Shown here one piece after another: positions 203 to 7,661 of a stretch of DNA of 9,689 bases. The DNA comes from a virus. Lineage: Duplodnaviria; Heunggongvirae; Uroviricota; Caudoviricetes. The stretch is from IMG/VR virus record IMGVR_UViG_3300026224_000016; one strand, 5' to 3'. The notes under the pieces are model-generated. The model saw nothing but the letters and a program-made list of their open reading frames with translations, was not told the DNA's origin and did not search any database. The position numbers were made by a program, and so were the translations under genes. How positions within the stretch are numbered: the stretch's first letter is position 1; each line of letters starts with the position of its first letter.

Positions 203-1594
203 TCAAAAGAAACGCTCCATCTTACTGCTGTCAGTTCGTTTGTTGCTGTATCTGCGCGGCTGAGGCTGCTGCATTGGGGTGGAAAGAATCTGTGCGCTTT
301 CCTGATCCACAGGCAGAAAATGTCCGTTATAAAAACGCCGATAAATCGTCCCCAGAGAACCGTTACGTTGTTTCGTGATATTGATTTCTGCGATGCCCCT
401 GGCCTGCGTATCCGGGTTGTACACTTCATCCCTGTAAAGCATCAGAATGATGTCTGCATCCGCCTCTATTTCTCCGGAATTTTTCAGGTCTGAGTTCATG
501 GGGCGTTTATTGGGCCTGGACTCCACACCGCGGGAGAGCTGACTCAGCGCAATCAACGGAAAACCACCGGATTTTGCCAGGCCTTTAAGCCCCTTTGAGA
601 TTTCACCAACGGCAAGGTCATGACGCCCTGTGGTTCGGGTTTTTATCAGCCCGAGATAATCAACCACCACCAGCGCCGTTTCCGGATGTTTAATCAGGTG
701 ATGTTTCGTTGTTGCGCATATCTCATCAATGGTCAGGTTCGCCTGGTCCACCATCCAGATATTGCGCCCGGTCATCCGCCCCACTCCTTGTGAGAAACGT
801 GCCCAGTCTTCGTCTTCAAAGTGAGTGACAGATTTCAGGCGTGATACCGGCATTCCTCCAGCCGCAGATACCATGCGTTCACCAATCTGGATGTTCGCCA
901 TTTCCATTGTGAACAGAAGAACACCATGCCCCTGCTCAGTCACCTTGTCGATGATATCCAGCGCCAGTTCGGTTTTGCCCATCGAAGGACGTGCAGCAAT
1001 AAATACCAGGTCGCCAGGCTCCATGCCGCCCGTTTTTGCGTCCAGTTCATCAATACCGGTCATCAACGTCCTGGATTTCTCCAGCCCCTGATTCCGGCAT
1101 TCAACACGCTCAACCACTTCCGGAAGCACATCATCAATATGTACCGGCTGAATAACGCCCTTTTCCGTCGACAATGAGGCCATCATGTTCTGCGCATCCT
1201 TCAGAGCATCTTCAGCTGCTTCACAGGTATGCGCATCACGTAATTTCTGCAGCGCCTCATTCAGTGTTTTTTCTGCATCACGCAATGCGGCATTACGCCG
1301 CAACGCCGTAACATAGTGCTCCAGTGACGACTTCACCCAGGTTTTGCGCCCGGTATCAGTAATCACCGGGGCAAGTTCCGGCATCTCATTACACAACAGC
1401 ACAGGGTCAATCACGCCGGACACACGGGCCTGTCTGCAGATGCCTGTGTAGATATCCCGGTACGGTCGTACAGAAAAAACGTCCGCCGGTAGTGTGGCCA
1501 GAATATCCATCACTTCAGGATCTGCCCCTCGCAGAAAAAACGCGCCAATGACAGCGCCTTCCAGGTCATCGTTACGCCAGACAGGAGAAGTCAT
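203..1594 (-). CDS. DnaB-like replicative DNA helicase (463 aa)
   Basis: Walker A FIAARPSMGKTELALD and Walker B ALVVVDYLGLIK match the DnaB family RecA-like core. Start moved from the track's 1633 to the ATG at 1594, which has an SD (GGAGGTG, 7 nt spacer) and overlaps the upstream stop as ATGA at 1591-1594. Confidence 0.9.
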   Translation of the reverse strand: MTSPVWRNDDLEGAVIGAFFLRGADPEVMDILATLPADVFSVRPYRDIYTGICRQARVSGVIDPVLLCNEMPELAPVITDTGRKTWVKSSLEHYVTALRRNAALRDAEKTLNEALQKLRDAHTCEAAEDALKDAQNMMASLSTEKGVIQPVHIDDVLPEVVERVECRNQGLEKSRTLMTGIDELDAKTGGMEPGDLVFIAARPSMGKTELALDIIDKVTEQGHGVLLFTMEMANIQIGERMVSAAGGMPVSRLKSVTHFEDEDWARFSQGVGRMTGRNIWMVDQANLTIDEICATTKHHLIKHPETALVVVDYLGLIKTRTTGRHDLAVGEISKGLKGLAKSGGFPLIALSQLSRGVESRPNKRPMNSDLKNSGEIEADADIILMLYRDEVYNPDTQARGIAEINITKQRNGSLGTIYRRFYNGHFLPVDQESAQILSTPMQQPQPRRYSNKRTDSSKMERFF

Positions 1595-2481
1595 GCTGCC
1601 ACACCTCCGATATGTGCACGGTAACTTTCCCAACCAAACACCAGGCAGTTACGCCCACCATCAGTAACGCGATCCACAATCCGTTCACCAATGGACTCCT
1701 TAAGTTGGTCAAATGTCAGATTACTAATCAAAATTGTCGGTAAAACGCTTTCGTAACGTGCATTGATGATTTCCTGCAGGATGGTTATCTCTGTTGGCGT
1801 ACCGAACTGCACACCAACCTCATCGATGATGAGCAGGTCCAGCGATACAAAATGGTCAATAACTTCATCTTCAGTGCGTTCAGAATTGTGACGCCAGGTA
1901 TTTTTCACAGCGCGGGTCAGTCGCATGACATCCGTAATTTCGACAGTCGCCAGGTGGTGGCGAATAATATTTTTTGCCATTGATACAGCCAGGTGATTTT
2001 TCCCGGTACCGCAATTGCCAATCATGATCATGCTGGTACCCGCAGCAAGACACTTCTCCCATGAACTGGCATAGCGCCGACAAGCCTCAAGATTTCTCTG
2101 TGCGTCAGCATTCACAGCCTGGTAGTTCTCAAACTCGCAGTCCTGGAAGCGGCGGGCAATACCAGCTCTGTCAAGTAATTCATGAACTTTCAGGATGCGT
2201 AACGCCTCCTGTACCTGATCCAGTTCATTCGCAATGCAGGTCGGGCAACCAGACACCCGTTTGATGGTTTCCCCACGAACATCTGGCCCTTTCAACACCA
2301 GACGTGTGTATTTCCCGTGTTTCTCACACTCAGCAGTTTCCTCGCTTGTCAGCCAGTGTTCACAGCGCCACGGACGCTTCCCGGCACGGGCAAACTGCAT
2401 CTCCTCCTCCAGTTCCGCCCTGCGGTTGAGCAATTGCGCTTTATCGTGTTGTGCGTAGTGTTTTTTTAACTGTTCAAACAT
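1591..2481 (-). CDS. DnaC/IstB-like AAA+ helicase loader ATPase (296 aa) with N-terminal Cys-rich segment
   Basis: Walker A GNCGTGKNHLA (DnaC-type GTGKNHLA signature) and Walker B LLIIDEVG. N-terminal CEHW...CEKHG...CPTC cluster suggests a zinc-binding module. SD GAGGTG upstream of ATG 2481; stop overlaps helicase start. Confidence 0.85.
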   Translation of the reverse strand: MFEQLKKHYAQHDKAQLLNRRAELEEEMQFARAGKRPWRCEHWLTSEETAECEKHGKYTRLVLKGPDVRGETIKRVSGCPTCIANELDQVQEALRILKVHELLDRAGIARRFQDCEFENYQAVNADAQRNLEACRRYASSWEKCLAAGTSMIMIGNCGTGKNHLAVSMAKNIIRHHLATVEITDVMRLTRAVKNTWRHNSERTEDEVIDHFVSLDLLIIDEVGVQFGTPTEITILQEIINARYESVLPTILISNLTFDQLKESIGERIVDRVTDGGRNCLVFGWESYRAHIGGVAA

Positions 2482-2500
2482 TGTTCATCACCTCGAAAAA

Positions 2501-3478
2501 TCACCAGTTGAAGTTCGTTGAACCGTAGTCCTGCTCACTGAATCCCGAGATCGGGAGGCCGGTAGTTCGCCCACCTCCGGGAGCGGCTGGCTGTTGCCAG
2601 GATTCCTCGAAATGGCGATCGGGTCCAAAGAACGTCGCGGCCTGCTTCACGAACTGTGTGCCTGTATTTCCTGTAGCACGTACCCAGGCGGCATACCGCT
2701 TCACACCATCAAGCATGGTCTCCGGTTTTATTCCCTCCCTGATACGGGCTTTCCAGGCTTTGAAGGCTGCTGACTTGGAATTGCCACCAGCACGTTTGGG
2801 ATATTCCTGCCAGGCCTGTTCAAATTCCGGTGAATATTCCTGTCGGGCAGAACGCGCTGGTGCAGACGCGTCAGCGGATGCGCCAATAGTGTTTTTAGTC
2901 TCCGTTGTAATCTCTGTAGTAATCTCTGTATTTGTATCAACATTCGGCGTATCCCCTGTTCCGTTATGACGTTGGGGGGTGTTCCGTTTTAACGTAATAG
3001 CTGTATCGCTGATTGCGTTATTGCTGTTACTTTCTGGCGAAACAGAAGAAGGAGTAGTAATGGCAGCAATTGCCTGTGGGTTGATCCCGACAAACAAAAT
3101 ATTGCTGCATTTCACACCATCGAGCATTTCCACCGTGCGTAAATCCAGGGAAATAAACCCGGCATCACGAAGGCGCTTCAACGCATCCGCGGTTTCCCTT
3201 TTCCCGAAACCAAACTGCTCAGCAAACGCCTGATAACTTCTTTGCAGCTTGTCCCCCTGAAAACGCTTGCGATATCCCAGCAAAGCCCCGGTATGCTCAT
3301 CCCTGACTTCTGTCGGGCGGTACCAGTAAACGATCTCTGAGAGCAGGGCGATAGCGGTCGCATCCGGACGACCACTGGGTAGCCGAATATGTTTCCACCA
3401 GTTCGCTGGTGTGACATTGCCGGAAATATTAATTTGACCAATAGCTATAACTTCCGGTGTGGGGGCGTAACGACTCAT
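2501..3478 (-). CDS. phage replication initiation protein (O-like replisome organiser, 325 aa)
   Basis: Sits immediately upstream of the loader and helicase genes. Two-domain layout with a low-complexity linker (NTEITTEITTETK) encoded by tandem DNA repeats, as in lambda O where ori lies in the linker-coding region. Start ATG 3478 overlaps the upstream stop (ATGA). Family call is from architecture, not a search. Confidence 0.7.
   Translation of the reverse strand: MSRYAPTPEVIAIGQINISGNVTPANWWKHIRLPSGRPDATAIALLSEIVYWYRPTEVRDEHTGALLGYRKRFQGDKLQRSYQAFAEQFGFGKRETADALKRLRDAGFISLDLRTVEMLDGVKCSNILFVGINPQAIAAITTPSSVSPESNSNNAISDTAITLKRNTPQRHNGTGDTPNVDTNTEITTEITTETKNTIGASADASAPARSARQEYSPEFEQAWQEYPKRAGGNSKSAAFKAWKARIREGIKPETMLDGVKRYAAWVRATGNTGTQFVKQAATFFGPDRHFEESWQQPAAPGGGRTTGLPISGFSEQDYGSTNFNW
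2907..2930. repeat. perfect 12-bp tandem direct repeat GTAATCTCTGTA x2 inside the initiator gene; candidate origin iterons
   Basis: Read directly: 2907-2918 and 2919-2930 are identical, followed by a partial third unit (TTTGTATC). A second imperfect repeat pair GTTCCGTTATGACGTT (2958-2973) and GTTCCGTTTTAACGTA (2981-2996) lies just downstream, 13/16 identical. Confidence 0.6.
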
Positions 3479-3774
3479 ACAGCCTCCTTACGCGGCATAA
3501 CAATGGTGTAACCCCGGGCAGGCTGGAGCCGGGCTTTTGCATCAATAGTGAGCGTTGCAATTTTTCGGATACGCAGATACCCTGCCCTTTCCAGGGTCAG
3601 GGTTTCTCTGAACATTGCCTGTTTTGAACAGCAACAAAAATCGGCAAGGACCTGGTGATCAATAACCCTCTCACCTTCACCGTCTGAAGAACCCGACATC
3701 AAAACACGCAACATAATCAGGCGCTGAATCGGATTATCGAAAACACTTCCGCATACAAACTGAAAACAGTTCAC
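3475..3774 (-). CDS. hypothetical protein (99 aa), possible small DNA-binding regulator
   Basis: GTG start at 3774 preceded by SD GGGAGG with a 6-nt spacer. Start overlaps the upstream stop (GTGA) and its stop overlaps the initiator start (ATGA at 3475-3478). A possible helix-turn-helix segment (QVLADF...ERAGYLRIRK) is by eye only. Confidence 0.55.
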   Translation of the reverse strand: MNCFQFVCGSVFDNPIQRLIMLRVLMSGSSDGEGERVIDHQVLADFCCCSKQAMFRETLTLERAGYLRIRKIATLTIDAKARLQPARGYTIVMPRKEAV

Positions 3775-3995
3775 ACGGCACCTCCCAGGCGTTTAAACAT
3801 TTTTCCGGACTGAAACGCCACCAGTGGGTAACTGATGGTGTAGTTACGCCCCAGTAATTCACACACGACTTTCTGGCTTTCGGTACTGACCAGGCAAACC
3901 CGCAGAACATGGCCGTTGCTGGTGGCAAACCACTGCCCCACACGGGGGCAACGGTTGTATCGGTGATACAGGGAATTAACGACGCGGCGAATCAT
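3771..3995 (-). CDS. hypothetical protein (74 aa)
   Basis: ATG at 3995 overlaps the stop of the upstream 220-aa gene (ATGA at 3992-3995), with a GGGAAG SD-like element 7 nt upstream. The track's longer start at 4010 has no SD. No family recognised. Confidence 0.5.
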   Translation of the reverse strand: MIRRVVNSLYHRYNRCPRVGQWFATSNGHVLRVCLVSTESQKVVCELLGRNYTISYPLVAFQSGKMFKRLGGAV

Positions 3996-4654
3996 GGGCG
4001 CACTTCCCATTGATTACGGCGGAAAGCAGTGTGATTCAGGCTGGTTTCAGCCTCATGGAATGCTTCAATGCAGCTCTCGTAGTACCGCATTGTGCGCAGA
4101 CTTAACCCAAGCTGAAGCATCATCAGACCATCAAGGGTGATGTAATAACCACGCAGGGAATCGCCATACACGTGGTAAGTACCCGGAATGAAATTACGGG
4201 AGAAGAATTCACGTGAGCAGTTCAGATACTCGATTTTGTCGACGATGTTCTGGTGCATGCGCTTAAAGTGGCAGGCAACATGCAGGGAGAAAATAACAGC
4301 TTTGCCGTTGACGACTTCGATTTTCAGGTATGGGGAAGTTGGGACTGTAGCCATGATGGCAGCCTCCGTATGCAATGGATAACTTCCACCACCGGAAACG
4401 CCAATTTCACTGGTGGTGAACTGAACGGGGTTGGCGTAACCGGCGCATACGGAAACCGGCGCATCTTTCGATGCCCCCGCCCAGCCCACCATAATCTGGA
4501 TGTGAGCAAATGCGGACGATAAAAAAGACGCTGGCGCGTCGTATATCGCCGTATGCAATTCCAGGACGCCAATCCCGGCACCCGCTTTATAAGGTGCCAG
4601 AACAGTGTAACGTCCCGAAATTGCAGAATCAATATTTAGGCTTGAAACATTCAT
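3992..4654 (-). CDS. hypothetical protein (220 aa)
   Basis: Long ORF with protein-like composition, co-oriented with and coupled into the replication operon. Weak or absent SD upstream of ATG 4654. No motif recognised. Confidence 0.6.
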   Translation of the reverse strand: MNVSSLNIDSAISGRYTVLAPYKAGAGIGVLELHTAIYDAPASFLSSAFAHIQIMVGWAGASKDAPVSVCAGYANPVQFTTSEIGVSGGGSYPLHTEAAIMATVPTSPYLKIEVVNGKAVIFSLHVACHFKRMHQNIVDKIEYLNCSREFFSRNFIPGTYHVYGDSLRGYYITLDGLMMLQLGLSLRTMRYYESCIEAFHEAETSLNHTAFRRNQWEVRP

Positions 4655-4732
4655 ATGCTTACTGGTATTTTTGTTGACGTTCTTGGATTCTTGGGCCTGC
4701 TTTATGCAGTTGCCTGTATCAACGTTGAGCGA

Positions 4733-4757
4733 GCCGGGTTACTACCCGGCTTTTTTT
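4733..4757 (+). terminator. rho-independent terminator-like hairpin, oriented for plus-strand transcripts
   Basis: GC-rich stem GCCGGGT (4733-4739) / ACCCGGC (4744-4750), loop TACT, followed by TTTTTTT (4751-4757). On the minus strand the hairpin is preceded by an A-tract and followed by non-U-rich sequence, so polarity favours the plus strand although it sits right at the Rha gene stop. Confidence 0.5.
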
Positions 4758-5464
4758 CACCGCTGCCAACCAATAACCTGAAATAACCCCATTTTCGGGT
4801 GATACCAGCGAGTCCCTCGCGGTTCTGCTTCCTCCATAACCCGATAAAAAGCAGCCATAAACGGTTCCACAGCAACAATTGCGCGACGTGACAACAATCC
4901 GTCCGGCGTCATGAACTCATGGGTGTCTGTAGGAATTTGATAGGCGTTCACCAGATTGCGGCATTTATCATCTGACAAACCGGTTTTTGCTTTCAGTTGG
5001 CGATATCCGGCATAGCCCTCACGAATGGTGCCCTTTTTGATTTGCTCAACTGTTTCGGCAACATGGCTGACTTTTTCTTCCACCTGAGTGATCCGTTTCT
5101 GCTGGCGAACAGCTTCAAGAGCCATCGCTGCAACCATTTCGATTTCGCTCATTGGCTTACGGATCTGTTCTTCCAGTTCGCGCCAGCGATCTACCAGGCG
5201 AGCAGTGAATTCAGGACAGAGCTGTGCGACGACAATGATGCTGTCGCGCTTACCTTGTTCTCCTTCAAACAGGTAATGCTCATATTGAACTTTAAAACCT
5301 AAGTTATTGATTCTTTCGGAAACCTCAATTTGAGGAGACCGGACAACGCCACCTTTGGCTAATGTTTCAATAGTGCGTTTCACATTGTCATGACGTTTAC
5401 CCACCAGCTCTGCGATTTCAACGCTGGTCATGGATACTTTGTCGTTAAAAATTGCAGCGTTCAT
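4757..5464 (-). CDS. rha: Rha-family phage regulatory protein / antirepressor-like (235 aa)
   Basis: N-terminal segment MTSVEIAELVGKRHDNVKRTIETL matches the characteristic Rha-family N-terminal motif. Start set to ATG 5464 (SD AAAGAGG about 7 nt upstream) rather than the track's 5488. Confidence 0.75.
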   Translation of the reverse strand: MNAAIFNDKVSMTSVEIAELVGKRHDNVKRTIETLAKGGVVRSPQIEVSERINNLGFKVQYEHYLFEGEQGKRDSIIVVAQLCPEFTARLVDRWRELEEQIRKPMSEIEMVAAMALEAVRQQKRITQVEEKVSHVAETVEQIKKGTIREGYAGYRQLKAKTGLSDDKCRNLVNAYQIPTDTHEFMTPDGLLSRRAIVAVEPFMAAFYRVMEEAEPRGTRWYHPKMGLFQVIGWQR

Positions 5465-5635
5465 TGTTGCCTCTTTACGAAAAACCATGATTAACCTCTA
5501 GCTTTCCCCGTCTTTTCCGCACTTCTTGTACGGTGATATTATTCAGTGCCGGATGCTTACCCGTGTCCGGCGCACGACCACACGTAGCCGCGTGTTGGTC
5601 TCCATTTTCAATTCAGCTCTCAATGGAGGATAAAA

Positions 5636-5881
5636 ATGTCAAATACCCAACATCTAAAAGCGGCGGATCCCGTTTTACGCCTCAATGCACTTGAAACGGT
5701 TGTTCGGGCGATGCTGTCGAGCATGACACCCGAGCAAATAAACAAAGCGCGATTGATTGCTACTCGTGGTGCCCAATTAGCAGCCCTAGATCCATTGCTC
5801 ACTCCTGCGAATCGCGAAGATGTAGAGCACATTCAGGGGATGGTTGATTATTTATTCGCCCATATTCCTGATCAGATTTGA
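5636..5881 (+). CDS. hypothetical protein (81 aa), opposite in orientation to the surrounding early operon
   Basis: Near-ideal SD GGAGGA (5625-5630) 5 nt before ATG 5636. Helix-rich, Ala/Leu-rich soluble-looking product. A hairpin GCCGCC/GGCGGC (5914-5936) followed by a T-rich stretch lies about 30 nt after the stop. No family recognised. Confidence 0.5.
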   Translation: MSNTQHLKAADPVLRLNALETVVRAMLSSMTPEQINKARLIATRGAQLAALDPLLTPANREDVEHIQGMVDYLFAHIPDQI

Positions 5882-5962
5882 TTCTTTGAACCATAATTTC
5901 AGCGATACGAATGGCCGCCGCTTCGAGCCTGGCGGCTTCTTTATCTGCATAAGAGCTACCCA

Positions 5963-6208
5963 TCACTTCTCGTCCTCTGTGTGCGCTAAGCTTGGGTGTG
6001 GAAAAAGCTCTGGTAGGTCTGGACGAAATTCATACGCTTGGATCTTTCCGTCGACAGCTGCAACCAATAACGGCACAAATTCTGGTGAAATCTTGTTCTT
6101 GCAGTTCAACCAATCGCAGACTGTTGACTGGGCCTTTCCGCATCGCTTGGCTAAGGCTTGCTGACTTCCAAGAATCTCAATAGCTTTCTCTATGGCTTTA
6201 TGTTTCAT
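5963..6208 (-). CDS. cro: Cro-like HTH transcriptional regulator (81 aa)
   Basis: Small HTH protein (GSQQALAKRCGKAQSTVCDWLN) transcribed divergently from the cI-like repressor. Start set to ATG 6208 with SD AGGAGA 7 nt upstream; the track's start at 6259 would lie upstream of the predicted promoter. Confidence 0.75.
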   Translation of the reverse strand: MKHKAIEKAIEILGSQQALAKRCGKAQSTVCDWLNCKNKISPEFVPLLVAAVDGKIQAYEFRPDLPELFPHPSLAHTEDEK

Positions 6209-6230: not shown

Positions 6231-6259
6231 ATAATAACAACAGGAAAAGCGATATTCAA
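6231..6259 (-). promoter_or_regulatory. candidate PR-like sigma70 promoter driving cro and the early operon
   Basis: Read on the minus strand: -35 TTGAAT (plus coordinates 6259-6254), 17-nt spacer, -10 TATTAT (6236-6231), placing the transcript start about 15-25 nt upstream of the cro ATG. Confidence 0.5.
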
Positions 6260-6277
6260 CGTTAAACCTAGAACATT

Positions 6278-6293
6278 TATCGGAAAGCCGATA
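6278..6293. promoter_or_regulatory. 16-bp palindrome TATCGGAAAGCCGATA in the cro-cI intergenic region; candidate operator
   Basis: Inverted repeat TATCGG-N4-CCGATA read directly, lying between the divergent cro and cI starts, where lambdoid OR operators occur. Confidence 0.45.
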
Positions 6294-6327: not shown

Positions 6328-7020
6328 ATGACATTTTCAGAACGACTTGATTTAGCTATGCGCAACGCAAAATTTACGCAAGGTAGGCTGGCCAAAGAAG
6401 TGGGTATGGCTCAGTCCAGTGTCAATCAACTACTTAACAAAGCCAACGGTTCCAGAAAAACAGTCGAAATAGCAAAAGTTTTGGGCGTTAACCCGGAATG
6501 GCTCGCATCGGGTGTTGGCCCAATGGAAATCGTGACCTCTGCAGACTCACACCAAATACGTAACATTTCTGAAGATTGGGTTACTGATTCGTATGTCGTG
6601 GATGTTTTAGACATCAGATATAGTTGCGGACCTGGTAGTTATAACTCTGATTTTCCTGACATTGTCAGATCTATAGCGATAGAACCAGGATACGCATCAA
6701 GAGTTTTTGGCGGCAGGCCAGCATCAGCAATCAAAGCAATAAACGCCCACGGCGACAGTATGAAAGGCACAATAGACCCTGAAGACTTGGTATTTGTAGA
6801 TGTATCAGTTCGCACATTTAATGGTGATGGTATATACGCCTTTACATACTCTGGAACATCGCACATCAAAAGACTTCAAAAAATCAAAGATACTCTAACG
6901 GTGATATCTGACAACCCAGCTTACAAGGATTGGGCTATCGAACCGGAAGACTTCGAACAACTTCACATTGACGGAAAAGTAATTGTCAGTTGGCCCATGA
7001 CACTACACCGTTTTGCATAA
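6328..7020 (+). CDS. cI: CI-like prophage repressor: N-terminal XRE-type HTH plus C-terminal LexA/S24 autopeptidase domain (230 aa)
   Basis: HTH FTQGRLAKEVGMAQSSVNQLLN. S24 catalytic signatures: Ser in AHGDSMKG and Lys in HIKRLQK. SD GGAGG 9 nt before ATG 6328. Divergent from cro. Confidence 0.9.
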   Translation: MTFSERLDLAMRNAKFTQGRLAKEVGMAQSSVNQLLNKANGSRKTVEIAKVLGVNPEWLASGVGPMEIVTSADSHQIRNISEDWVTDSYVVDVLDIRYSCGPGSYNSDFPDIVRSIAIEPGYASRVFGGRPASAIKAINAHGDSMKGTIDPEDLVFVDVSVRTFNGDGIYAFTYSGTSHIKRLQKIKDTLTVISDNPAYKDWAIEPEDFEQLHIDGKVIVSWPMTLHRFA

Positions 7021-7038
7021 GCAAAAATCATTTAACCC

Positions 7039-7064
7039 GCCCACTCTTAAGTGGGCTTTTTTTT
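7039..7064 (+). terminator. rho-independent terminator downstream of cI
   Basis: Stem GCCCACT (7039-7045) / AGTGGGC (7050-7056), loop CTTA, followed by eight T residues (7057-7064), 19 nt after the cI stop. Confidence 0.8.
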
Positions 7065-7085: not shown

Positions 7086-7114
7086 TTGACAGACAAAATC
7101 GGCAAACCTATTAT
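7086..7114 (+). promoter_or_regulatory. sigma70-like promoter for the accessory cassette, with flanking repeats
   Basis: -35 TTGACA (7086-7091), 17-nt spacer, -10 TATTAT (7109-7114). Direct repeats AAATCGATAAACC (7071-7083) and AAATCGGCAAACC (7096-7108) flank the -35, and CCGATT (7082-7087) / AATCGG (7096-7101) form an inverted pair. Confidence 0.55.
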
Positions 7115-7163
7115 CATGGCATAGGTATCGAACTCACCAAAGCAATTATAGAGGATGAGAAAA

Positions 7164-7661
7164 ATGTCATCGTATATGGGGTTACCAACAAATCAGCACG
7201 ATGCTCTTGAGAATATTCAACTCTTAGTAGGGGCTGGTGCACTACTGTATAGCAGCAATAATCCTGAGTTAATTGAACTTGCCAGCTCCATCCTGGCTGT
7301 AACTCAAAAATACAGCCTCACCGCGTCGCGTTTATGCAAACAAAATTTAGCTATTAATTCCCAGAATCGGATTCGCACCCAACGCGAAGCCTGCGGCTTA
7401 ACAACCGCCGAACTCGCCAGGCTGCTCGATCTCGATGAAGAAATTATCATCCAGTGGGAGAGCGGAGAGTATGAACCAACTATCAGTATGCTTATCCCAC
7501 TGGCAAATATTCTTGGCTGCGATCCGATGTGGCTGTTAACTGGCGAAGTTACTCCTCCGGAGCAACCAAAAAGTGAGGAGCAGCAACACCATGACGCATC
7601 TCAACAAGTTTGCTCCTTATCTCGCGAAGCTCTTCTACGGAAGAACCAATACCAATGGTGA
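7164..7661 (+). CDS. HTH (XRE/Cro-C1-type) DNA-binding protein with an uncharacterised N-terminal domain (165 aa)
   Basis: C-terminal half has a classic XRE HTH (LTTAELARLLDLDEEIIIQWESGEYEPTISMLIPLANILGCDPMWLLTG). The roughly 75-aa N-terminal region matches nothing I recognise. Start chosen at ATG 7164 (SD GAGGA, 8-nt spacer). Confidence 0.7.
   Translation: MSSYMGLPTNQHDALENIQLLVGAGALLYSSNNPELIELASSILAVTQKYSLTASRLCKQNLAINSQNRIRTQREACGLTTAELARLLDLDEEIIIQWESGEYEPTISMLIPLANILGCDPMWLLTGEVTPPEQPKSEEQQHHDASQQVCSLSREALLRKNQYQW

What the first reader, a model, noticed from the sequence alone, without database searches (positions are those of the whole stretch)
4655..4757. Plus-strand terminator inside a minus-strand operon: possible oop-like antisense RNA
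The hairpin and T7 tract at 4733-4757 is oriented to terminate plus-strand transcripts, yet every convincing gene around it is on the minus strand. The only plus-strand ORF ending here is a weak 43-codon frame starting at 4655. A short antisense RNA covering the start region of the 220-aa gene, analogous to lambda oop RNA, would explain it. Alternatively it is a leaky bidirectional terminator after the Rha gene. I found only a weak promoter candidate (TTGAAA 4642-4647, 18-nt spacer, TATTTT 4666-4671).
Basis: partly seen in the sequence, partly recalled or inferred. Interest (0 to 1): 0.45.

Follow-up and report, generated by a model that had tools for sequence, protein, structure and literature searches.

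The report
Predicted OOP-like prophage antisense RNA
A strong, conserved transcription stop signal pointing against the flow of a prophage's early genes, with a conserved promoter about 80 bases upstream, most likely makes a short unannotated antisense RNA that resembles lambda's OOP RNA in place and size but not in sequence; this is a modest, untested addition to the known phage small RNAs.

Summary
At 4731-4757 (+) there is a canonical intrinsic terminator (8-9 bp GC-rich stem, tetraloop, T7) that abuts the stop codon of the minus-strand rha gene. Only one other site of this strength exists in the window, the cI terminator, and none appeared in 300 shuffles.

The window is the immunity/replication region of a phiP27-like ("Eru"-type Stx-phage-like) E. 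coli prophage. The 5' 300 nt of the "220-aa gene" hold two Rfam RNA genes, isrK and C4, and do not evolve as coding sequence. The real CDS probably starts at 4354.

The terminator belongs to a ~110-bp unit between rha and the isrK promoter. It is present in 236 of 5426 E. coli genomes as three diverged alleles. All three keep:
- the promoter TTGAAA-18-TGnTAT(T/C)TT, back-to-back with the isrK promoter;
- a 5' 10-mer, GUUCUUGGAU;
- an internal hairpin with a compensatory change;
- the terminator.

Best reading (about 0.55): a ~80-nt plus-strand RNA antisense to the rha-isrK junction of the rightward early transcript. It is OOP-like in geometry but not an OOP homologue, and it overlaps no coding sequence. 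No expression data exist. Interest is moderate.

The parts
4642..4647 (+). -35 hexamer TTGAAA of the predicted plus-strand promoter. It lies 9 bp from, and back-to-back with, the -35 of the isrK promoter.
   Evidence: It is invariant in the three alleles except for one TTGGAA variant. It is absent where isrK modules are preceded by something else.
4663..4671 (+). Extended -10, TGgTATTTT (TG 4663-4664, hexamer 4666-4671).
   Evidence: The TG and TAT-TT are conserved in alleles A, B and C. Lambda Po gets the same score in the same scan.
4677..4757 (+). Predicted ~80-nt antisense RNA. The start is inferred as 6-8 nt after the -10; the end lies in the T-run.
   Evidence: Inference. The fold is -31.6 kcal/mol with z = -4.2; alleles B and C give z = -3.8 and -4.7. 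No Rfam family matches it.
4679..4688 (+). Conserved 10-mer GTTCTTGGAT at or near the predicted 5' end. It could be a seed or a protein-binding site.
   Evidence: It is near-invariant in all alleles while the flanking body is only 64-69% identical. No second copy exists in the window or in phage ASU11.
4692..4716 (+). Internal hairpin 2 (outer GGC/GCC, inner CUGC/GCAG, loop UUUAU).
   Evidence: Allele C has CUUC/GAAG, a compensatory change. Allele B has a different, longer hairpin at the same place.
4731..4757 (+). Intrinsic terminator: stem-loop 4731-4752 with T7 run 4751-4757.
   Evidence: It is conserved with T6-T8 in every allele.
4757..5488 (-). rha (Rha/Roi, Ant-family regulator, 243 aa). 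Its stop codon abuts the T-run.
4604..4632 (-). Predicted isrK promoter: TTGATT 4632-4627, 17-nt spacer, TACACT 4609-4604. The start falls at 4597, which is Rfam isrK model position 1.
   Evidence: Read, with the isrK start taken. It is conserved in all modules.
4521..4597 (-). isrK-type RNA carrying the a1/b1 target sites and its own terminator.
   Evidence: Rfam RF01394, 61.8 bits against a gathering score of 50. Terminator at 4540-4527. a1 lies at 4573-4567 and b1 at 4556-4549.
4409..4496 (-). C4-type antisense RNA.
   Evidence: Rfam RF01695, 80.5 bits against a gathering score of 45. Its loop CCGUAUGC at 4452-4445 is complementary to b1 and b2.
3992..4354 (-). Probable real CDS: a 120-aa Rha-domain protein. 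The Shine-Dalgarno GGAGG at 4367-4363 is overlapped by C4 target b2 (4373-4366); a2 lies at 4405-4399.

Best explanation
The hairpin and T7 run form the terminator of a small, self-contained plus-strand transcription unit. The unit lies in the ~110-bp spacer between the Ant-family gene rha and the isrK-C4 RNA module of a phiP27-like prophage.

A sigma-70 promoter (TTGAAA, 18 nt, TGgTATTTT) sits back-to-back with the isrK promoter. It would fire towards rha and give an RNA of about 80 nt. That RNA has a conserved 5' GUUCUUGGAU, an internal hairpin and the terminator, and it stops exactly at the rha stop codon.

The RNA is fully complementary to the segment of the rightward early (pR-type) transcript that joins rha to the isrK-C4-gated replication genes.

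Mechanism, all inferred:
- As with lambda OOP on cII mRNA, pairing would create an RNase III substrate just 3' of rha.
- Cleavage would remove the 3' hairpin of the rha message and uncouple rha from the downstream genes, so Rha/Ant output falls.
- The terminator also stops this transcription from running antisense through rha and cro towards cI.

Shown here: the terminator, the conservation of the promoter motif, the allelic structure and the genomic position. Not shown: that the RNA exists, or what it acts on.
For: **Terminator.**
- It is canonical and far beyond chance.
- It is conserved with T6-T8 in every copy.

**Promoter.**
- It is the only promoter-like site in 700 nt in alleles B and C, in the same place and orientation.
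- It carries the extended -10 TG, and it scores the same as the real lambda Po in the same scan.
- From the shuffle density, a site of this score falling by chance in a 50-nt window on the correct strand has a probability of about 0.04, before the TG is counted (my inference).
- Promoter and terminator occur together. Tandem isrK-C4 modules, e14-like contexts and a Salmonella phage have isrK without either one.

**Allelic pattern.**
- Alleles A and C are at least 95% identical on both flanks but only 69% identical in the RNA body.
- Even so, the body keeps the 5' 10-mer, a hairpin with a compensatory G-C to U-A change, and GUUGAGYGAGCC.
- All three alleles fold well, with z from -3.8 to -4.7.

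**Independent case.** In phiP27 a different sequence after the orthologous gene is again a plus-strand terminator.

**Precedent (from my own knowledge, apart from the paper cited).** Small antisense RNAs that restrain regulators in this part of phage genomes include OOP on cII (PMC7067206), P22 sar on ant, and P1/P7 c4 on icd-ant.
Against: - There are no expression data, and no paper holds the hairpin sequence.
- The promoter is only a consensus match. Across the whole window such matches are no more frequent than in shuffles: 11 found against 13.8 expected.
- The same region folds as well on the minus strand, with z from -3.7 to -4.75.
- G-U evidence for strand is split. The variants CUUC/GAGG, GGC/GUC and GCUGGG favour the plus strand. 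The allele-B variants GGAACC and CAGAGCC favour the minus strand.
- Unlike OOP, the RNA overlaps no coding sequence, so the proposed effect on rha is indirect.
- No target for the conserved 10-mer was found in the window or in a complete phage genome.
- There is no excess complementarity to the isrK-C4 leader.
Confidence: 0.55

Rival explanations
1. Insulator only. The AT-rich region upstream of the isrK promoter fires divergently as a by-product. The strong terminator is kept simply to stop that antisense transcription, or any other, from entering rha and cro and running towards cI. The short RNA has no function of its own.
For: - The two -35 hexamers are back-to-back, 9 bp apart.
- The terminator sits exactly at the edge of rha.
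- phiP27 has an unrelated plus-strand terminator at the same edge.
- The RNA body is hypervariable, 64-69% identical between alleles.
- No target was found.
Against: A pure insulator does not need a conserved 5' 10-mer, nor a hairpin retained through a compensatory change and replaced by another hairpin in allele B. It also does not explain why the -35, the TG and the -10 of a harmful promoter are preserved in three alleles rather than lost.
Confidence: 0.25
2. Minus-strand RNA element. In the rightward early transcript, the hairpin directly after the rha stop codon acts as a 3'-end stabiliser or processing site, or as a weak terminator. On this reading the A7 run and the second hairpin are features of that mRNA.
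For: - The minus-strand fold is as stable as the plus-strand fold, with z from -3.7 to -4.75.
- Two allele-B variants keep pairing only as G-U on the minus strand.
- A hairpin follows the orthologous gene in phiP27 as well.
Against: - No U-tract follows the hairpin on the minus strand (UCGCUCAACG), so it is not a canonical terminator.
- The strictly conserved A6-A8 run has no known role 5' of a stabiliser hairpin, but it is exactly what a plus-strand terminator needs.
- Three other variants favour the plus strand.
- In more distant relatives rha is translationally coupled to the next gene with no hairpin at all.
Confidence: 0.13
3. Relic. The unit is debris from a recombination junction between the rha module and the isrK module, for example the terminator of a lost plus-strand moron, and has no present function.
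For: It lies at a mosaic boundary. Identity drops from 99% in rha to 66% in the body and rises again to 90% in isrK. The unit has a narrow distribution: 9 phage records and 236 of 5426 E. coli genomes.
Against: Three diverged alleles all keep an intact perfect stem, T6-T8 and the promoter motifs. No decayed copies were seen among about 70 IMG/VR loci or in the metagenome hits.
Confidence: 0.05
4. Small protein gene. The 43-codon plus-strand ORF 4655-4786 is translated.
For: The ORF exists.
Against: - It runs through the terminator.
- There is no Pfam hit.
- In allele B, the commonest, the corresponding frame reads ATG ATC ATA TAG.
- The body lengths of the alleles (67, 73 and 78 nt) differ by 6, 5 and 11 nt, so the frame is kept in only one of three pairs.
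- Its ATG lies upstream of the predicted transcription start.
Confidence: 0.02

Closest known systems
Lambda OOP RNA (77 nt, promoter Po, antisense to cII)
   Same: - It runs antisense to the pR operon, between the gene after cro and the replication genes.
- Its promoter has an extended -10 and scores 9 of 12 matches plus TG.
- The distance from the -10 to the end of the T-run is about 84-86 nt in both.
- The terminator hairpins have similar strength.
   Different: - There is no sequence similarity: the global alignment scores 2.5 against -4.0 +/- 4.3 for shuffles.
- OOP overlaps about 54 nt of cII coding sequence. This RNA stops at the rha stop codon.
- The upstream gene is an Ant/Rha-family protein, not CII. 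The CII-like regulator here lies in the leftward operon, at 7155-7661.
- Its promoter is paired divergently with an isrK promoter.
P22 sar RNA (68-69 nt antisense RNA in immI that blocks ant translation)
   Same: It is a small antisense RNA next to an antirepressor-family gene, transcribed against the operon and ending at the 3' edge of the upstream gene. This comparison rests on my knowledge of P22 plus the layout seen.
   Different: - sar covers the ant ribosome-binding site. The RNA predicted here covers no ribosome-binding site.
- The proteins show no homology: P22 Ant against phiP27 L15 gives E = 0.26.
- The phiP27 allele, with a candidate promoter inside the 5' end of L15, is closer to the sar layout, but I only read it by eye.
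P1/P7 c4, P4 CI and Gifsy-1 IsrK/STnc1160 immunity RNAs
   Same: These are the immediate neighbours of the finding. isrK and C4 are present with complete a1/b1 and a2/b2 target sites. They also control antirepressor-type or replication genes through RNA pairing (PMC4825925).
   Different: They lie on the opposite strand and the Rfam models do not cover 4655-4757. The new RNA shows no excess complementarity to them.
Bidirectional intrinsic terminators between convergent genes
   Same: A hairpin flanked by an A-run on one side and read from both directions.
   Different: The U-tract is present for one direction only, and there is no convergent protein gene.

Membership tests
Intrinsic (Rho-independent) terminator, plus strand | G+C-rich stem with a short loop | tested here: met
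   8-9 pairs with 6 G-C pairs, a 4-nt loop and dG -16.7 kcal/mol.
Intrinsic (Rho-independent) terminator, plus strand | U-tract immediately 3' of the stem | tested here: met
   T7 at 4751-4757, and T6-T8 in all relatives. No site of this class appeared in 300 shuffles.
Intrinsic (Rho-independent) terminator, plus strand | Measured termination of transcripts | not testable with these tools
   Needs Term-seq or a reporter assay.
Lambda OOP RNA family | Antisense to the pR operon, between the gene after cro and the replication genes | tested here: met
   Gene order is CI 6328-7020(+), cro 5963-6208(-), rha(-), the unit, isrK-C4, then O-like, DnaC-like and DnaB-like genes.
Lambda OOP RNA family | Own sigma-70 promoter about 80 nt upstream of the terminator | tested here: inconclusive
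   A conserved consensus match scores the same as Po. Promoter activity was not measured.
Lambda OOP RNA family | Overlaps the 3' coding end of the upstream regulator gene | tested here: not met
   The RNA would end at the stop codon of rha, so the overlap is at most 1 nt.
Lambda OOP RNA family | Sequence homology to oop | tested here: not met
   The alignment is no better than shuffles, and no Rfam family matches.
Lambda OOP RNA family | RNase III-dependent cleavage of the target mRNA | not testable with these tools
   Needs an experiment.
P22 sar-type antisense RNA | Complementary to the ribosome-binding site and start of an antirepressor gene | tested here: not met
   The predicted RNA (4677-4757) covers no ribosome-binding site. 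ATG 4654 lies outside it and is probably not a real start.
Bidirectional terminator | U-rich tract 3' of the hairpin on both strands | tested here: not met
   The minus-strand 3' flank is UCGCUCAACG, and the scan lists the site on the plus strand only.
N-utilisation (nut) site on the minus strand | boxA followed by a boxB hairpin with a GNRA-like pentaloop, a second copy after pL, and an N gene | tested here: not met
   - The loops are AUAAA, ACAAA or CGCAUA, not G...A.
- No similar hairpin follows the promoter at 7086-7114.
- No N-like gene is present in the window or in phage ASU11.
C4 / isrK (Rfam RF01695, RF01394) | Covariance-model score above the gathering threshold over the finding's coordinates | tested here: not met
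   The matches lie at 4409-4496 and 4521-4597 on the minus strand, next to the finding but not over 4655-4757.

The most novel reading that the evidence does not exclude
The unit could be a third, allelic RNA-based specificity determinant of these prophages, a hypervariable antisense cassette with alleles A, B and C.

The facts behind this reading:
- The body diverges to 64-69% identity while both flanks stay at least 95% identical (alleles A and C).
- Each allele keeps a hairpin and a constant 5' 10-mer.

On this reading, the RNA made in the lysogen would act on the incoming or induced phage's rha-isrK junction transcript in an allele-specific way. That would be a heteroimmunity-like layer coupled to the isrK-C4 gate in front of the replication genes.

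Alternatively, the constant 5' GUUCUUGGAU could be an Hfq-type seed that targets a host mRNA.
Probability: 0.15. Interest if true: 0.6.

Novelty: new member of a known kind. Interest (0 to 1): 0.38.

Why it matters
These phiP27-like ("Eru"-type) early regions occur in Shiga-toxin phages, where the lysis-lysogeny switch sets toxin output. Published descriptions of those regions treat them as protein genes only. In PMC8951638 the words antisense, terminator and sRNA do not occur.

If the RNA is real, the stretch between cro and the replication genes carries three RNA regulators, the new antisense RNA plus isrK and C4. Induction of these Stx prophages would then be controlled partly at the RNA level.

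The practical gain is a precise, cheap hypothesis: one Northern blot, one promoter fusion and one -10 mutant. It also corrects the annotation of the 'ash/Rha' ORF.

Tried and rejected
1. **Rfam.** No family matches the finding. The only hits were weak terminator-driven ones to SorY, SorX and AS-pc01, far below threshold.
2. **Homology to lambda Po-oop.** None.
3. **nut or put-like element on the minus strand.** Rejected. The loops do not fit boxB, there is no second copy after pL, and there is no N gene.
4. **The 43-codon ORF.** Rejected.
5. **Trans target of the 10-mer within the window or a complete phage genome.** None.
6. **Pairing of the RNA with the isrK-C4 leader.** No better than shuffles; the fraction of shuffles at least as good was 0.21-0.43.
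7. **Duplex scan of translation-initiation regions.** My first attempt was uninformative because duplexfold ignores intramolecular structure.
8. **Strand assignment from G-U wobbles and fold z-scores.** Inconclusive, since both strands fit.
9. **More distant relatives.**
   - The genome-contig scan found only rha genes translationally coupled to the next gene, with no unit.
   - The metagenome scan returned the same three alleles plus chance hits.
10. **A general feature of isrK modules?** No. The unit is absent from tandem modules, e14-like prophages and Salmonella phage 118970_sal3.
11. **Literature.** No paper contains the hairpin sequence, and I found no transcript data for phiP27 or Eru phages.

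Full report
**What is at the coordinates**

The plus strand reads GAGCCGGGT-TACT-ACCCGGCTT followed by T's, with a T7 run at 4751-4757. The consensus scan ranks it as the strongest terminator-like site in the window: 9 pairs, 6 of them G-C, and a 4-nt loop.

I then applied a stricter definition of my own: a perfect stem of at least 7 bp with at least 5 G-C pairs, a loop of 3-8, and at least 6 T. Under it the window has only two sites. One is this site. The other is the terminator just after the CI repressor gene, at 7039-7056. No such site appeared in 300 dinucleotide shuffles.

The hairpin energy is -16.7 kcal/mol, close to the -17.2 of the lambda oop terminator. On the minus strand the same hairpin is preceded by A7 and followed by UCGCUCAACG. 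It is therefore a one-directional terminator for plus-strand transcripts. The last T of the run is the complement of the third base of the rha stop codon.

The window is the immunity and replication region of an E. coli prophage. It resembles phiP27 and a set of Stx2 phages, the "Eru"-type regulatory regions of PMC8951638. The map is as follows.

| Feature | Coordinates | Strand |
|---|---|---|
| CI-like repressor | 6328-7020 | + |
| CI terminator, then a near-consensus promoter | 7039-7056, 7086-7114 | + |
| CII-like regulator | 7155-7661 | + |
| cro-like gene | 5963-6208 | - |
| rha (Ant/Roi family) | 4757-5488 | - |
| O-like replication gene | 2501-3478 | - |
| DnaC-like gene | 1591-2481 | - |
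| DnaB-like gene | 203-1633 | - |

Between rha and the replication genes Rfam finds two RNA genes on the minus strand, both above their gathering scores:
- isrK at 4521-4597, 61.8 bits;
- C4 at 4409-4496, 80.5 bits.

The P1-type target sites are complete:
- AUUGGCG occurs at 4573-4567 and at 4405-4399.
- GCAUACGG occurs at 4556-4549 and at 4373-4366. The second copy overlaps the Shine-Dalgarno GGAGG at 4367-4363, which lies 8 nt before ATG 4354.
- The complement of GCAUACGG sits in a C4 loop at 4452-4445.

Both RNA genes lie inside the "220-aa gene" 3992-4654, which RefSeq calls an "ash family protein". The Pfam Phage_ASH match covers residues 16-108 of that ORF, which is essentially the DNA of isrK plus C4.

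I ran a codon-position test on 101 distinct homologous sequences:
- In 4354-3992, variable sites at codon positions 1/2/3 number 36/30/73, the pattern of a real coding sequence.
- In 4597-4355 the counts are 47/43/44, which shows no coding signal.

So the real gene most likely starts at 4354 and encodes a 120-aa Rha-domain protein. The "start region of the 220-aa gene" is not a translation start.

**The terminator is part of a conserved, allelic unit**

Of the 80 IMG/VR loci that encode close rha relatives, 67 have the same arrangement directly after the stop codon. In order, that arrangement is an A6-A8 run, hairpin 1, a spacer, a second hairpin, the 10-mer ATCCAAGAAC (minus-strand sense), and then the isrK promoter.

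The unit comes in three alleles: A (the window), B (the commonest) and C. The same three alleles, and no others, appeared in metagenomes. The unit is found in 236 of 5426 complete E. coli genomes and in 9 phage records.

The identity profile is striking.

| Segment | A vs B | A vs C |
|---|---|---|
| Last 600 nt of rha | 99% | 95% |
| A-run plus hairpin 1 | 90% | 96% |
| Unit body (~67 nt) | 66% | 69% |
| Plus-strand promoter | 69% | 100% |
| isrK promoter plus isrK | 90% | 95% |

The body is therefore a hypervariable island. It still keeps four things:
- the 10-mer GTTCTTGGAT (plus-strand sense);
- a hairpin at the same place. Allele A has GGC-CUGC/GCAG-GCC. Allele C has CUUC/GAAG, a compensatory G-C to U-A change. 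Allele B has a different 5+4-bp hairpin;
- GTTGAGYGAGCC;
- the terminator.

**Evidence for a plus-strand promoter**

In an alignment chosen without reference to the promoter, the following are kept in all three alleles, while the spacer and the protein-level reading of the opposite strand change:
- the -35 hexamer, invariant except for one TTGGAA variant;
- the TG;
- TAT-TT of the -10.

In alleles B and C the scan finds this site as the only promoter-like match in 700 nt, in the same orientation and at the same distance from the terminator.

As a positive control, the same scan on lambda finds the true oop promoter with the same score (TTGAGT-17-CATAAT, 9 of 12 matches plus TG). The spacing from the -10 to the end of the T-run is about 84 nt in lambda and 86 nt here.

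The -35 lies 9 bp from, and back-to-back with, the -35 of the predicted isrK promoter (TTGATT 4632-4627, 17 nt, TACACT 4609-4604). That promoter places the isrK start at 4597, which is exactly Rfam model position 1.

Promoter and terminator also occur together. Neither is present where isrK-C4 modules are preceded by something else:
- second and third copies in tandem arrays;
- e14-like prophages;
- a Salmonella phage.

In phiP27 the orthologous gene L14 is followed by an unrelated hairpin that is again a plus-strand terminator: GGCCGG...CCGGCC followed by TTTCTTATTT. In more distant relatives from Yersinia, Providencia, Proteus and Atlantibacter, rha is translationally coupled to the next gene and there is no hairpin.

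**Interpretation**

The simplest account is a small transcription unit that makes a plus-strand RNA of about 80 nt (88-92 nt in alleles B and C). The RNA would start 6-8 nt after the -10 and end in the T-run. All three versions fold well, with z from -3.8 to -4.7. The fold is a 5' segment, an internal hairpin, a spacer and a terminator with a long U tail. From my own knowledge, that is the usual build of an enterobacterial small RNA.

The RNA would be perfectly complementary to the part of the rightward early transcript that links rha to the isrK-C4 gate in front of the replication genes. By analogy with OOP and cII mRNA (PMC7067206, and my own knowledge of the Krinke and Wulff work), I infer two things:
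- Pairing creates an RNase III site just 3' of rha. Cleavage removes the protective 3' hairpin of the rha message and uncouples rha from the downstream RNA.
- The terminator keeps this transcription out of rha and cro, and stops it running on towards cI.

This mechanism is inferred, not shown.

**Limits**

- There are no expression data, and no paper contains the sequence.
- Consensus promoter matches are no more frequent in the window than in shuffles.
- The region folds equally well on the minus strand.
- Single-sided substitutions split between the strands. Three favour plus-strand pairing and two favour minus-strand pairing.
- No partner for the conserved 10-mer was found in the window or in phage ASU11.
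- There is no excess pairing with the isrK-C4 leader.

The rivals are therefore real. In order of weight they are a pure insulator terminator for divergent by-product transcription, a minus-strand mRNA 3' element, and a recombination relic. The 43-codon ORF can be dismissed, and so can a nut-like site.

**Comparison with known systems**

The unit works like OOP in its geometry: strand, position, size, promoter type and terminator. It is not an OOP family member, because it has no sequence similarity and no overlap with the upstream coding sequence.

It resembles P22 sar in sitting next to an antirepressor-family gene, but it covers no ribosome-binding site. The phiP27 allele may be closer to sar.

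It is not part of the C4/isrK families, and it is not a bidirectional terminator.

**Verdict**

- The element is a probable new member of a known kind, the phage cis-antisense small RNAs. It has an unusual allelic, hypervariable body.
- Interest is moderate until a transcript is demonstrated.

Noticed in passing
window 4355-4654 (-), inside ORF 3992-4654: The N-terminal 'Ash domain' (Pfam PF10554, residues 16-108) of the annotated 'ash family / Rha' protein coincides with the isrK and C4 RNA genes. It shows no third-codon-position excess (47/43/44, against 36/30/73 in the C-terminal half). The Pfam Phage_ASH family and RefSeq 'ash family protein' calls may largely be translations of conserved RNA genes. 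PMC8951638 treats Ash as a protein domain of unknown function. PMC10111431 notes that P4 CI RNA lies within a Bro-network gene.
   Followed up: partly
window 4366-4597 (-) upstream of replication genes 203-3774 (-): A complete P1-type a1/b1 - C4 - a2/b2 module, with the isrK terminator, sits between the cro-rha genes and the O-like, DnaC-like and DnaB-like genes. This suggests a P4/P1-style RNA gate on replication-gene expression in these Stx-phage-like prophages. The Eru-phage papers I read do not mention it.
   Followed up: partly
L024 4154-5654; L052 3389-4889: Some prophages carry three tandem copies of the isrK - C4 - small Rha-domain gene module, each about 656 bp. The joint falls in the first codons of the next gene (ATGATCCGCCACCAG|AATATTGATTC).
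   Followed up: partly
window 5636-5881 (+), terminator-like site 5917-5936 (+): An 81-codon plus-strand ORF lies between cro and rha, antisense to the early operon. It has a strong ribosome-binding site (GGAGGATAAAAATG) and its own plus-strand terminator-like hairpin. It has no Pfam or PHROG match. By eye, an extended -10 (TGATATTAT) lies upstream at about 5540.
   Followed up: partly
L319 (phiP27) 4038-4130 (+): After the rha orthologue L14, an unrelated plus-strand terminator (4101-4121 followed by TTTCTTATTT) is preceded by TTGATT-18-TGATATTGT inside the 5' end of the Ant gene L15. An RNA of about 60 nt from here would cover the L15 ribosome-binding site and start, a layout like P22 sar. 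I read the promoter by eye; the scan did not list it.
   Followed up: partly
window 7039-7056 and 7086-7114 (+): A strong terminator (T8) directly after cI is followed 30 bp later by a near-consensus promoter (TTGACA-17-TATTAT, 11 of 12 matches). That promoter leads into a CII-like regulator gene at 7155-7661. The weak Rfam Trp_leader hit at 6985-7064 is just this terminator.
   Followed up: no
window 4679-4688: GTTCTTGGAT is almost invariant in all three alleles, although its distance from the -10 differs by 6 nt in allele C. No explanation so far accounts for it. It could be a seed, an operator or a processing site.
   Followed up: partly
window 6259-6285 (-): The region between cI and cro holds a 16-bp inverted repeat, TATCGGCTTTCCGATA, and a related half-repeat next to the pR-like promoter (6259-6231). 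They are probably CI/Cro operators. No similar site lies near the finding.
   Followed up: no
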